21,415 nucleotides of DNA from IMG/VR virus record IMGVR_UViG_2617270975_000009, positions 1 through 21,415 of that record. One strand, 5' to 3'. Shown piece by piece: positions 9,001 to 12,000 of this stretch. This DNA comes from a virus (lineage: Duplodnaviria; Heunggongvirae; Uroviricota; Caudoviricetes). Position numbers: made by a program. Numbering within the stretch: the stretch's first letter is position 1; each line of letters opens with the position of its first letter.

Positions 9001-12000
9001 ATGAATTGCTATTACAGGCCAGAGAGTCTGATAATCCTGAGCAGGCCGAGATCCACAATTTCCTGATGCTGGATATTGAACGCCGGGTTTACGACCTGAG
9101 CCGCATCAACGACAGATTGCAGGCTATTAACTGACCCGCATGTATTCACCTGATATTGCGTTGTCAGCGCCGCCAGTATCGCGCATAACAGCGCACTGAC
9201 CGGGTAAACCGTAGCGCACGACCGTTGCGTTAGTATCACCGCCGCGCCGTATCTGGCGCGATTCATACACTGTCACCCGCTCAAGCAGTCCACCAGCAAC
9301 CATGCTTTCCAGTGTGCGCCGGGTTGATTCGAGCTGGTGACGCTTATCGAACGACACCATGCCATGAAGCAGGTAGGCCACACCCGACACATCGAACGGC
9401 GGCGCACCAATCTCACCAGTCACCCATTCGAGGTTATCCGGTTCAAAGTAGCTAAGTATCTCTTTTTTGCGACTGGTCATTCTCATGGCTGGCTGATTCC
9501 TTATTGTGGGATAGCACTATCATACAATAAGTGGGTTAAAGGGAGAGCGTTACCGCCTGATATGCTGTATGAATAACAACCAAATTTCAGGTGCGGAAAA
9601 AGATATGGGGGTACTTTTGGGGGTATCTATAAAAAATGAACAATAAAAAAGGCAACAAAAACAAAGCTTATCGCCTATGTGTATTGTTCCTATTATCGGC
9701 ACCATTCAAACATCTCCCCAAGTCTACTAAAGTCTTTCAAAACCCCTTATAATCCGTGTATTAAAGCCCCGTTCGTCTTTTGACGTCTACTAAAGTCCCT
9801 CAAAATCTACGGTCAGATGGGGGTACTTATGGGGGTATTTGCTGTTCGGTTTAGTGGAGGTACCCCCAAGTGAAACTCAATGCCCGTCAAATAGACACAG
9901 CCAAGCCAAAAGAGAAGGCTTACAAGCTGGCCGATGGTGGCGGTTTGTATCTCTTGGTAAAACCTAATGGAGGTAAATACTGGCGACTTAAATATCGTGT
10001 AGCTGGTAAAGAGAAGCTATTGGCACTAGGTGTGTATCCTGAGGTTACTCTAGCCGATGCTCGGGCAAAACGTGAAGATGCGAAAAGAGGTATCGCTGGT
10101 GGTATCGATCCGATGGAAGCGAAACGAGAGGAAAAGATTGCCCGGGAAACGCAGTTAAACAACACCTTCAAAGATATTGCCCTTGAGTGGCACAGCAGCA
10201 AATTAAAAAAATGGTCTGCTGGTTATGCTTCAGACATCCTCGAAGCCTTCAACAAAGATGTGTTCCCTTACATTGGCAAAAAACCAATCGCCGAAATCAA
10301 ACCACTTGAACTTCTGAATGTGCTGCGGCGCATCGAGGGGCGCGGTGCTACAGAAAAAGCCAAAAAAGTGAGGCAGCGGTGCGGGGAAGTTTTCCGCTAT
10401 GCAATAGTCACTGGTCGCGCAGAGTATAACCCTGCACCAGACCTTACTAGCGCGATGCAAGGCCATGAATCTAATCATTACCCTTTCCTTACAGCTAAAG
10501 AATTACCTGATTTTTTCAAGGCATTGTCCAGTTACTCAGGAAGCGCATTGGTTGTTATGGCGGCTCGTCTACTGATTATCACCGGCTTGCGGACTGGCGA
10601 ACTACGTGGCGCATTATGGGATGAAATTGATTTCAACAAGGCTATCTGGGAGATACCCGCTTCACGTATGAAAATGCGGCGGCCTCATATTGTGCCATTG
10701 TCTGATCAGGCTCTTTCGCTTATTGGGAAGATTAGAGAAATAACAGGCAATTACCCTCTTATGTTTCCCGGGCGCAATGATCCAAGGAAAACAATGAGTG
10801 AGGCCAGCATAAACCAAGTGTTTAAGCGCATTGGCTACGCTGGACGTGTAACTGGTCATGGGTTCCGGCACACTATGAGCACGATTTTGCATGAGCAGGG
10901 CTATAACACCGCGTGGATAGAAACGCAGCTCGCTCACGTTGATAAGAACTCAATTCGTGGCACATACAACCATGCGCAATATCTGGATGGAAGGCGGGAG
11001 ATGCTTCAATGGTATGCCGACTATATGGATGCGCTGGAGAAGGAGGAGAACGTTGTTCATGGTTCGTTTGGGAAACGAGCTTAACTGTATGAATAGACCG
11101 TGTTAAGCAATGGTAGTAGACTTATGTAGACGAACAAAGAATAGGCTATGTCTAGGCTGATCCCCGAAAACCCGTACACCCCTACGGGCTGGCATAGCCG
11201 TCAGAATTAGGGGCGCGGGGTGGCGTATGGTGAGAGCCAAAAAACAAGATTTAGCATGGTTTGATATTAGTAATTATGAATTTTTAAATGATTTAACCTT
11301 GCCGGACTTGATTCAAGAATTAGAGTGGCGCGATTTTTTATTGCGTCATGCAAAAGATGACACTGCTATATTCAAAGAAGAGTACGATATAAAATATGAA
11401 AGGATTTTTTCGGGCGATCCTAACCTAACCATTCTCAATGAAGAAGAGGAAGAGGTCGAAGAATTTATTCGCAAAGTAAATGATGAAGCCCCATCATTAA
11501 GAAATGAGTACGATGATCTTCCCTCATTATCTTCAGCTATGGGGGTTAGTCCAGTAACATTTTCAGAGCTGGCCATGTACTCTTTCTCATCGATAGATCA
11601 AGGCTTTTTTAAAAGAGACGAAGAGGATTGCTACCTCAAGGCAAACGCTATGCTTGCGAGTGTTACTGGAAACCTAAGTAATTGTTCCCCTAACATCATA
11701 CTCGTTTCTATAGATTTAGATGACGCCACTGATGACGAAATTATTACCAGCCTGACTCACCTTCTACCTCTATGGCGAAAAGAGTTAAAAGTACCAGAGA
11801 GAGAGCATGTCGCTCAGAAAAGGATTGGATTAAAGACCCTTCAGAAGTTGATATCTAATAGAGTGATACCTATTGTTGATCTGCTGATTTGGGGTGAGAA
11901 GTCAGGTAAGGAAGTGAGCAATCCGATGATTTCTGCCTTGGTTTTTAGTGATGATCCGAAAGATACGCAGGCTATTAAGGAATCAATAAAGCCTTTTGCA

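What the first reader, a model, noticed from the sequence alone, without database searches (positions are those of the whole stretch)
9605..9868. Paired direct repeats upstream of int, including GGGGGTA(C/T) doublets
Two 22 bp repeats 212 bp apart and two 21 bp repeats 63 bp apart lie directly upstream of a P4-type integrase, with an inverted half-site overlapping the int ribosome-binding site. This fits integrase arm-type sites within an att region, or AlpA/integrase autoregulatory sites, and would mark the left boundary of the satellite-like element.
Basis: inference. Interest (0 to 1): 0.4.

Follow-up and report, generated by a model that had tools for sequence, protein, structure and literature searches.

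The report
P4-type attP with integrase arm repeats
The repeats upstream of the integrase gene match, piece for piece, the attachment-site "arm" repeats annotated in satellite phage P4, arranged around a 19-base core copied from the thrW tRNA gene; this is an ordinary, well-understood kind of site, and the element's boundary lies between the two repeat pairs, not to their left.

Summary
Two 22-nt GGGGGTAY doublets (9605-9626, 9817-9838), two 21-nt boxes (9722-9742, 9785-9805) and an inverted GGGGGTAC (9860-9867) abutting the int start are all present, far above chance. The region is a complete P4-type attachment site: far-arm doublet, A-rich spacer, 19-nt core identical to the 3' end of tRNA-Thr thrW (9688-9706), two boxes, a conserved -10-like TATAAT, int-side doublet, inverted unit, int. 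It aligns collinearly with phage P4's attP, whose GenBank record annotates the same five positions as 'attP arm sequence repeats' (motif GGGGGCAY). Spacings match: 112 nt from the tRNA CCA end to the int-side doublet, and boxes 63 nt apart. Across related thrW islands the doublets are invariant while flanks diverge. In a second lineage all units, at both island ends 33 kb apart, read GGGGGCAT, which points to a trans-acting reader, the integrase arm-binding domain. The boundary claim is wrong: crossover is at the core, and the left doublet is the element's far end. The window is one 21,024-bp element closed on itself (circular or tandem), interrupted by one IS629-like insertion. What binds the two boxes (probably the Vis/AlpA excisionase) is unresolved. 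Verdict: new member of a known kind, low to moderate interest.

The parts
9605..9628 (+). Int-distal (far) arm doublet: two 12-nt units, ATGGGGGTACTT and TTGGGGGTATCT. Putative integrase arm-type sites.
   Evidence: Invariant 25-nt block in far arms of islands with unrelated cargo, with similarity ending just outside it (A2). Aligns with P4 'attP arm sequence repeat' 4174-4151.
9629..9687 (.). A-rich spacer between the far doublet and the core. Its length is conserved but its sequence is not.
   Evidence: A2 and A3. No IHF consensus with up to 1 mismatch. The hairpin plus T-run on the minus strand at 9676-9650 falls in a spacer whose sequence is not conserved in other far arms.
9688..9706 (+). 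Core: the 19-nt identity TCCTATTATCGGCACCATT shared with the thrW 3' end and its downstream TT (attB). This is the crossover region and the true element boundary.
   Evidence: single copy. thrW sequence in MP1. attR in CFSAN061761. Empty-site allele thrW|TTAAAATCAAAG at 100% identity over the full query in listed genomes; 2,624 genomes cover at least 80% of it.
9722..9742 (+). Box 1 (D2 copy 1): two 10-nt units, GTCTACTAAA|GTCTTTCAAA. Overlaps the -35 region of the putative int promoter. Candidate Vis/AlpA (RDF) site.
   Evidence: GTCTA core kept in most relatives, degraded in box 2 of the most diverged one (A1). Aligns with the P4 box TCCGAGAAAGTCC.
9748..9753 (+). TATAAT, a -10-like hexamer of the putative int promoter.
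   Evidence: Read. TATAAT/TATACT in all thrW relatives (A1; L016). Aligns with TAAAAT in P4 (A3). Not reported by the strict consensus scan because the -35 is weak.
9785..9805 (+). Box 2 (D2 copy 2): GTCTACTAAA|GTCCCTCAAA, 63 nt after box 1.
   Evidence: P4 has its second box exactly 63 nt after its first (4059 and 3996).
9817..9840 (+). Int-proximal arm doublet: ATGGGGGTACTT and ATGGGGGTATTT. Putative arm-type sites between the promoter and the int start.
   Evidence: Conserved in relatives of 68-100% identity (A1). 112 nt from the tRNA CCA end, the same as in P4.
9858..9869 (-). Inverted arm unit (TTGGGGGTACCT on the minus strand), overlapping the Shine-Dalgarno and abutting the int start codon.
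   Evidence: Aligns with the inverted P4 'attP arm sequence repeat' 3915-3926 over the int start. Switches to TGCCCCC together with the direct units (A1).
9870..11084 (+). int: P4-family tyrosine integrase with an N-terminal Arm-DNA-bind_3 domain, the presumed reader of the GGGGGTAY units.
   Evidence: Pfam. 42% identity to P4 Int, E=5e-116.
12306..12503 (+). alpA: homolog of P4 Vis (excisionase/regulator), the candidate recombination directionality factor.
   Evidence: Pfam Phage_AlpA. 39% identity to P4 Vis, E=5e-16.
20140..21415 (-). IS629-like insertion. It continues at window 1-425, so it is one 1,310-bp copy with a TAA target duplication. Context only, but it shows that the window is circularly permuted.

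Best explanation
Window 9605-9869 is the complete attachment site (attP-like, closed form) of a thrW-integrating P4-family element. The five GGGGGTAY units are arm-type binding sites for the N-terminal Arm-DNA-bind_3 domain of the adjacent integrase: a tandem pair on the int-distal arm, a tandem pair on the int-proximal arm, and one inverted unit at the int start. The integrase's C-terminal domains act on the 19-bp core (9688-9706), which is identical to the 3' end of tRNA-Thr thrW. Integrase bridging arms and core, helped by the bendable A-rich spacer and by accessory factors, assembles the intasome. Recombination with thrW then yields attL (thrW, boxes, doublet, inverted unit, int) and attR (doublet, core). 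The int promoter (-10 TATAAT at 9748-9753) lies inside the int-proximal arm, so integrase bound at the downstream doublet and inverted unit should also repress its own gene, as reported for P4 and KplE1. The two 21-nt boxes between the core and the doublet, each made of two 10-nt direct units, are most likely sites for the Vis/AlpA-type excisionase that bends this arm for excision. Shown here: the sequence anatomy, homology to P4 attP, the thrW core, occupied, empty and closed junctions, and co-variation of the units. Inferred: protein binding, autoregulation and the box-RDF assignment.
For: (1) Homology to a characterised site. The P4 GenBank record annotates 'attP arm sequence repeat' at a far doublet, an int-side doublet and an inverted copy over the int start, around a 20-nt tRNA-derived core. 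The motif there is GGGGGCAY. The window and P4 att regions align collinearly over about 310 nt with 3 small gaps (A3), with 112 nt from the CCA end to the int-side doublet and boxes 63 nt apart in both. Int is 42% identical to P4 Int and AlpA is 39% identical to Vis. (2) Footprint. In far arms of islands with unrelated cargo, only the doublet (25 invariant columns), the spacer length and the core are kept (A2). In int-side arms of relatives at 68-100% identity, the doublet and inverted unit are kept (A1). (3) Co-variation. In a second thrW lineage all three int-side units read GGGGGCAT/ATGCCCCC (L006). In strain 300709 the far arm, 33 kb downstream, also reads GGGGGCAT x2. At least 14 genomes appear in both hit lists. 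P4 shows the same C-variant on both arms. (4) Recombination products. attL next to an intact thrW, attR next to yagP'/paoD, the empty site in thousands of genomes, and closed junctions in this window and in an independent IMG/VR contig whose 77-nt terminal repeat starts exactly at the core. (5) Enrichment. All 5 of 5 GGGGGTAY copies lie in 261 nt, against 0.49 expected per window. (6) Literature. P4 Int represses its own promoter by direct DNA binding, Vis binds DNA in P4 attP, and attL-embedded int promoters are autoregulated (PMC2951348; PMC2603039; PMC7286903).
Against: No binding or recombination experiment exists for this element, so the assignment rests on homology and co-variation. No sigma-70 promoter passed the strict scan, and no IHF consensus was found in the arms. 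The box-RDF link is weak. The box-like copy upstream of alpA (16/21, 0.135 expected per window) is absent from relatives. P4's box motif does not recur near vis. In the PICI EcCICFT073, AlpA did not affect the int promoter. The T/C switch is seen in only two lineages (the E. coli CAT-type islands and P4), which may share ancestry.
Confidence: 0.85

Rival explanations
1. The int-side repeats act mainly as RNA. The second direct unit and the inverted unit form a 5'-UTR hairpin that hides the Shine-Dalgarno and start codon of int, giving translational control, possibly modulated by the RNA-binding Vis/AlpA protein. This could be a second layer on top of arm-site function.
For: The minimum-free-energy fold of 9760-9900 pairs GGGGGUAU with UACCCCC across the SD. 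The consensus fold of six relatives keeps the stem, with one compensatory pair, UA to CG. P4 Vis is reported to bind int mRNA (PMC2951348; PMC2603039).
Against: The z-score is only -1.75 and the covariation term is +0.72, which is not favourable. The same T/C switch occurs in units with no RNA partner: the first int-side unit and the far-arm doublet 33 kb away. The far-arm doublet is invariant although it is never part of the int mRNA.
Confidence: 0.15
2. The GGGGGTAY doublets are operators for AlpA or another element-encoded regulator rather than for the integrase.
For: They lie between the putative promoter and int. AlpA/Vis proteins do bind att regions.
Against: The motif is absent from the alpA upstream region and from the rest of the element. 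The units track the integrase, not AlpA: MP1's element has an identical int-side arm and the same far-arm doublet, yet its AlpA is only 76% identical. The identical layout in P4 is annotated as attP arm repeats. AlpA did not regulate Pint in EcCICFT073.
Confidence: 0.05
3. The juxtaposition of the two doublets is only a chromosomal tandem-array junction (attR of one island next to attL of a second, different island) or an assembly artefact, not a functional closed attP.
For: Tandem junctions do exist at thrW: MP1, FDAARGOS_1300 and the L017 and L018 contigs have a far arm and core followed by a decayed int arm. Sequence alone cannot separate a circular monomer from a tandem repeat of the same element.
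Against: Here both sides belong to the same element. The window's 391-nt terminal overlap lies in one IS copy with one TAA duplication, and removing it restores collinearity with the single MP1 element (997/1011 identical, no gap at the joint). The int next to the junction is intact, unlike the decayed second copies. No complete E. coli genome among the listed full-length hits has this junction above about 93% identity. Either way, the identity of the repeats as arm sites is unaffected.
Confidence: 0.2

Closest known systems
Satellite phage P4 attP / Pint region (NC_001609 features 'attP arm sequence repeat' and 'attP core'; Pierson & Kahn 1987, Cali et al. 2004 and Piazzolla et al. 2006, as cited in PMC7286903, PMC2603039 and PMC2951348)
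   Same: Same order and orientation of parts: far tandem doublet, tRNA-derived core ending in CCA, two boxes 63 nt apart, -10-like hexamer, int-side tandem doublet 112 nt from the CCA, inverted unit over the int start, then int. 12-nt unit period. The motif differs by one base (GGGGGTAY vs GGGGGCAY). Int is 42% and the RDF 39% identical.
   Different: The target tRNA is thrW, not leuX, so the core differs outside TCGGCACCATTC. The box sequence differs (GTCTAC..GTC vs TCCGAG..GTCC). There is no sixth repeat inside int. int starts at a GTG aligned with P4's second ATG. The element is 21 kb, lacks sid/psu/delta, and carries other cargo.
KplE1/HK620 attL-PintS module (IntS/TorI; Panis et al. 2010, PMC2951348)
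   Same: The tRNA and int read in the same direction, with the int promoter embedded in attL. Arm-type sites and RDF sites overlap the promoter region, and negative autoregulation is predicted.
   Different: A different integrase lineage, different arm motif (TAAA-containing) and argW target. Regulation has been shown experimentally for KplE1, not here.
Other thrW-integrated E. coli islands with the same integrase family (vat island remnant, BREX island of strain HS, CAT-type islands)
   Same: They share the thrW core, the arm layout and the integrase family. They often sit in tandem with this element type.
   Different: Their cargo is unrelated. One lineage uses GGGGGCAT units. Many have decayed int genes or deleted far ends.

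Membership tests
P4-type attachment site (attP with arm repeats around a tRNA-derived core) | Adjacent P4-family tyrosine integrase with an N-terminal arm-binding domain | tested here: met
   Pfam Arm-DNA-bind_3, Phage_int_M and Phage_integrase. 42% identity to P4 Int over the full length.
P4-type attachment site (attP with arm repeats around a tRNA-derived core) | Core sequence identical to the 3' end of a tRNA gene that serves as attB | tested here: met
   The 19-nt identity with the thrW 3' end plus TT. The empty site thrW|flank is found at 100% identity over the full query in listed genomes, and 2,624 genomes cover at least 80% of it.
P4-type attachment site (attP with arm repeats around a tRNA-derived core) | Repeated arm motif on both sides of the core in the P4 arrangement (2 far, 2 near, 1 inverted at the int start) | tested here: met
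   for positions. Collinear alignment to the annotated P4 repeats.
P4-type attachment site (attP with arm repeats around a tRNA-derived core) | Arm motif evolves together with the element's integrase at both ends | tested here: met
   TAY-type at both ends in the window and MP1. CAT-type at both ends in strain 300709 and in P4.
P4-type attachment site (attP with arm repeats around a tRNA-derived core) | Integrase N-domain physically binds the arm repeats | not testable with these tools
   Needs EMSA or footprinting. Only indirect support from P4 (Int N-terminus sufficient for Pint repression, recalled from the Piazzolla 2006 abstract; direct DNA binding as summarised in PMC2951348).
P4-type attachment site (attP with arm repeats around a tRNA-derived core) | Site is recombinationally active (attL, attR, attB and a closed attP all observed) | tested here: met
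   attL, attR, attB, and closed junctions. This is past or population-level activity, not shown for this copy.
Autoregulated integrase with promoter inside attL (KplE1 'STI' arrangement) | tRNA and int in the same orientation, with the whole int upstream region inside attL | tested here: met
   thrW(+) then int(+), with 165 nt between them, in MP1 and E2863.
Autoregulated integrase with promoter inside attL (KplE1 'STI' arrangement) | Mapped int promoter overlapped by Int/RDF sites, with repression by Int | tested here: inconclusive
   There is a conserved -10-like TATAAT with box 1 over the -35 region and arm units downstream. The consensus scan found no promoter, and there are no expression data.
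Vis/AlpA (RDF) binding boxes in attP | Direct repeats one helical turn apart between the core and int, matched by sites at the RDF's own promoter | tested here: inconclusive
   Each box is made of two 10-nt units, and the position is homologous to the P4 boxes. The alpA-upstream copy is weak and not conserved. There is no P4 box near vis.

The most novel reading that the evidence does not exclude
Two integrase lineages that share exactly the same thrW core use arm units differing at one position (GGGGGTAY vs GGGGGCAT), switched at all five units and at both island ends. If this single-base change, together with the co-occurring arm-domain substitutions L29E, L40M, L53F and D63Q, is a real specificity switch, it would insulate islands stacked in tandem at thrW from each other's integrases. 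It would also give a simple natural recognition code for the Arm-DNA-bind_3 domain. L017 shows a CAT-type far arm directly abutting a TAY-derived int arm.
Probability: 0.25. Interest if true: 0.5.

Novelty: new member of a known kind. Interest (0 to 1): 0.25.

Why it matters
It sets the element's ends correctly: the core at 9688-9706, not the left doublet. That matters for delimiting the island and its cargo. It shows that the window is a closed (circular or tandem) form of a thrW-integrating P4-family element, which hints at active excision. It also provides a well-sampled natural data set of arm-site and integrase co-variation: hundreds of E. coli genomes and two arm variants at one attB. 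That data set could be used to work out how Arm-DNA-bind_3 domains read DNA. Otherwise it is a textbook attachment site.

Tried and rejected
- The strict sigma-70 scan of 9400-10000 found no promoter. I rely instead on a conserved -10-like hexamer.
- The IHF consensus WATCAANNNNTTR with up to 1 mismatch gave no site in 9590-9870, and the motif is not enriched in the window.
- A third box-like copy lies 34 nt upstream of alpA's ATG (12260, 16/21). It looked like a Vis-style autoregulatory site, but 0.135 such hits are expected per window, it is absent upstream of alpA in the MP1 and IMG/VR relatives, and P4's own box motif is absent near vis. I dropped it as evidence.
- The far end of the CAT-type island could not be found in strain 2022S01-140 within 50 kb. 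In strain HS it has been deleted. It was finally found in strain 300709.
- Megablast with the L017 far arm found nothing. The sensitive mode was needed.
- The closed-junction pattern gave no hit in the species-representative genomes.
- The 51-aa ORF 9550-9705(-) spanning the core was rejected. Integration would split it, and the spacer it needs is not conserved.
- The terminator-like hairpin 9676-9650(-) falls in a spacer whose sequence is not conserved in other far arms.
- The primary P4 papers (PMID 15063119 and 16847139) are not held. Their content is cited through secondary sources or marked as recalled.
- A paper search for P4-like satellites at thrW found nothing.

Full report
**Observation.** The repeats are exactly as described. 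D1 lies at 9605-9626 and 9817-9838 (22 nt, 95% identical, 212 nt apart). D2 lies at 9722-9742 and 9785-9805 (21 nt, 90% identical, 63 nt apart). An inverted GTACCCCC at 9860-9867 runs from the last G of the GGAGG Shine-Dalgarno to just before the int GTG at 9870. GGGGGTAY occurs five times in the window, all within 9607-9867, against 0.49 expected and no shuffle reaching five. The 20-nt box pattern occurs only at the two D2 sites, with 0.00 expected. The downstream gene is a 404-aa P4-family integrase with an Arm-DNA-bind_3 domain.

Between the two doublets, at 9689-9704, sits CCTATTATCGGCACCA, present once in the window. ARAGORN finds no tRNA gene, but this 16-mer is the 3' end of tRNA-Thr thrW. 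In E. coli MP1 and E2863, an intact thrW is followed by sequence essentially identical to window 9705-9880 and the same int. This is attL.

Conversely, 288 complete E. coli genomes have a best match of at least 99% identity, and those listed match only window 9300-9714. In them the left doublet and the core are followed directly by chromosomal yagP'/paoD. This is attR.

The empty-site allele, thrW joined directly to that flank, occurs at 100% identity over the full 123 nt in the listed genomes such as ATCC 8739, and 2,624 genomes cover at least 80% of the query. The identity shared by attP and attB is TCCTATTATCGGCACCATT (9688-9706). So the element's boundary lies at the core, inside the reported interval. 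The left doublet belongs to the int-distal end of the element.

**Why both ends are adjacent here.** The window's first 391 nt equal its last 391 nt, giving a unique length of 21,024 nt. The overlap lies inside one 1,310-bp IS629-like element, with its IR at 20140 and its other end at 425. Both flanks carry the same 3-bp TAA. Deleting the IS and one TAA joins 20139 to 429 into a sequence collinear with the uninterrupted MP1 element: 997/1011 identical, with no gap at the joint.

MP1 shows the full gene order: thrW, int, alpA, primase, ejection-protein genes, PerC, PRiA4_ORF3, far arm. The window is therefore one element, circularly permuted: a circular molecule or a tandem repeat. The finding is its closed attP-like junction.

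An independent 12.9-kb IMG/VR contig with a related 404-aa int ORF (its int region about 84% identical in DNA to the window's) shows the same closed junction. Its 77-nt terminal repeat begins exactly at the first base shared with thrW. By inference, this is what an assembly graph gives when integrated and closed forms coexist. Chromosomal tandem junctions also exist, but there the second int is decayed.

**Identity of the repeats.** Phage P4's GenBank record annotates 'attP arm sequence repeat' at a tandem pair beyond the core (4174-4151), a tandem pair on the int side (3965-3942), and an inverted copy over the int start (3915-3926). These surround a 20-nt tRNA-derived core. The P4 unit is (T/A)(T/G/A)GGGGGCA(C/T), one base different from the unit here.

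The two att regions align collinearly over about 310 nt with three small gaps (A3). In both, 112 nt separate the tRNA CCA end from the int-side doublet, and a pair of boxes lies 63 nt apart between the core and that doublet. Int is 42% identical to P4 Int, and the window's AlpA is 39% identical to P4 Vis.

**Conservation.** Far arms of thrW islands with unrelated cargo (DUF4747, GapS1, HEPN nuclease, aspartase) share only three things: a 25-column invariant block containing the doublet, a spacer of conserved length, and the core. Similarity ends just outside the doublet (A2). On the int side, relatives at 68-100% identity keep the doublet, the inverted unit, a TATAAT/TATACT hexamer and, in most of them, the GTCTA core of both boxes (A1).

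**Co-variation.** In a second thrW lineage (206 genomes), all three int-side units read GGGGGCAT/ATGCCCCC. In strain 300709 the far arm, 33 kb downstream next to yagP'/paoD, reads GGTGGGGGCATAAAAGGGGGCAT. At least 14 genomes appear in both the int-arm and far-arm hit lists. P4 likewise has the C-variant on both arms.

A change shared by five units spread over tens of kilobases is best explained by a trans-acting reader encoded by the island, namely the integrase arm domain. Arm-domain positions L29E, L40M, L53F and D63Q distinguish the two CAY-type proteins from the four TAY-type proteins (A5). This is only a lead, because the CAY types may share ancestry.

**Mechanism.**
- Inferred from the λ/P4 paradigm as summarised in PMC2951348: the integrase N-domain binds the arm units, and the C-terminal domains cut and rejoin within the 19-bp core. 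The arms fold back to form the intasome.
- Integration into thrW regenerates the tRNA 3' end and places the promoter-bearing arm next to thrW.
- The conserved -10-like TATAAT (9748-9753) lies inside the int-side arm, so the int promoter would sit within the attachment site. Box 1 covers its -35 region, while box 2, the doublet and the inverted unit lie downstream of it.
- Integrase occupancy should therefore repress int, as reported for P4 and KplE1 (PMC2951348) and for a P4-like PAI integrase (PMC7286903).
[quoted passage not shown] From memory of the Cali et al. 2004 abstract (the paper is not held), it does so at two boxes between int and the core. This matches the position of D2.

**Limits.**
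- The box-RDF assignment is the weakest step. The box-like copy upstream of alpA is not significant and not conserved. P4's box motif does not recur near vis. AlpA did not control Pint in the PICI EcCICFT073 (PMC6092414).
- No promoter passed the strict scan, and no IHF consensus lies in the arms.
- An RNA hairpin between the second unit and the inverted unit could occlude the RBS. However, its z-score is -1.75 and its covariation term is unfavourable, and it cannot explain the far-arm units. It may be an added layer.

**Comparison and verdict.** This is a thrW-specific member of the P4-type attachment-site family. It works like P4 attP/Pint and meets every sequence-level membership criterion. 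Protein binding remains untested. Novelty: new member of a known kind. Interest is low to moderate. The main added value is the corrected boundary, the closed form of the element, and the two-variant arm code at one attB.

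Noticed in passing
window 786-5444: The element carries P22-like virion/ejection genes after its primase: a phrog_651 head-morphogenesis protein (DUF2824-like), and gp7-, gp20- and gp16-like DNA-ejection/transfer proteins. The same order is seen in MP1. This cargo sits in an int-alpA-primase element that has P4-type immunity RNAs but no sid/psu/delta. The one paper search run returned no paper that combined 'ejection protein' with phage satellites. It may be a captured remnant of a thrW-integrating P22-like prophage.
   Followed up: partly
window 20140-21415 and 1-425: A single 1,310-bp IS629/IS1203-like insertion with a TAA target duplication lies between the primase gene and the ejection-gene block. 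It carries the two ALIL pseudoknot hits.
   Followed up: yes
window 14330-14407 and 14470-14557: Rfam isrK and C4 antisense RNA (the P4 CI-type immunity RNA family) lie inside or overlapping the 355-aa Ash-family ORF 13949-15016. An int-alpA RNA (RF02996) lies at 11145-11212, just after int.
   Followed up: no
window 7613-7677 and 19754-19818: A 65-nt inverted repeat (92% complementary) lies 12 kb apart. The copy after the primase gene contains GTTGGTTCA iteron-like tandem units, possibly ori/crr-like replication repeats as in P4.
   Followed up: no
window 9500-9531: A 15-nt-arm palindrome, CTTATTGTGGGATAG/CTATCATACAATAAG, lies immediately upstream of the leftward 119-aa ORF 9127-9486. It looks like an operator and is conserved in related genomes.
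   Followed up: no
window 11113-11131: On the minus strand, two GTCTAC hexamers lie 10 nt apart (GTCTACATAAGTCTAC) between the int stop codon and the int-alpA RNA. They resemble the first unit of the D2 boxes. The hexamer itself is not enriched in the window.
   Followed up: partly
L017 4890-5160; L002 12300-12560; L018 9530-9700: thrW islands are often stacked in tandem. A far arm and core of one island abut a decayed int arm of the next (the vat island type has a 12-nt deletion in its doublet and a truncated int). L017 pairs a CAT-type far arm with a TAY-derived int arm.
   Followed up: partly
window 11227-12108: A DUF6387 gene lies between int and alpA in this element and in E2863, but is absent from the otherwise collinear MP1 element. 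It looks like a variable cargo slot right after int.
   Followed up: no
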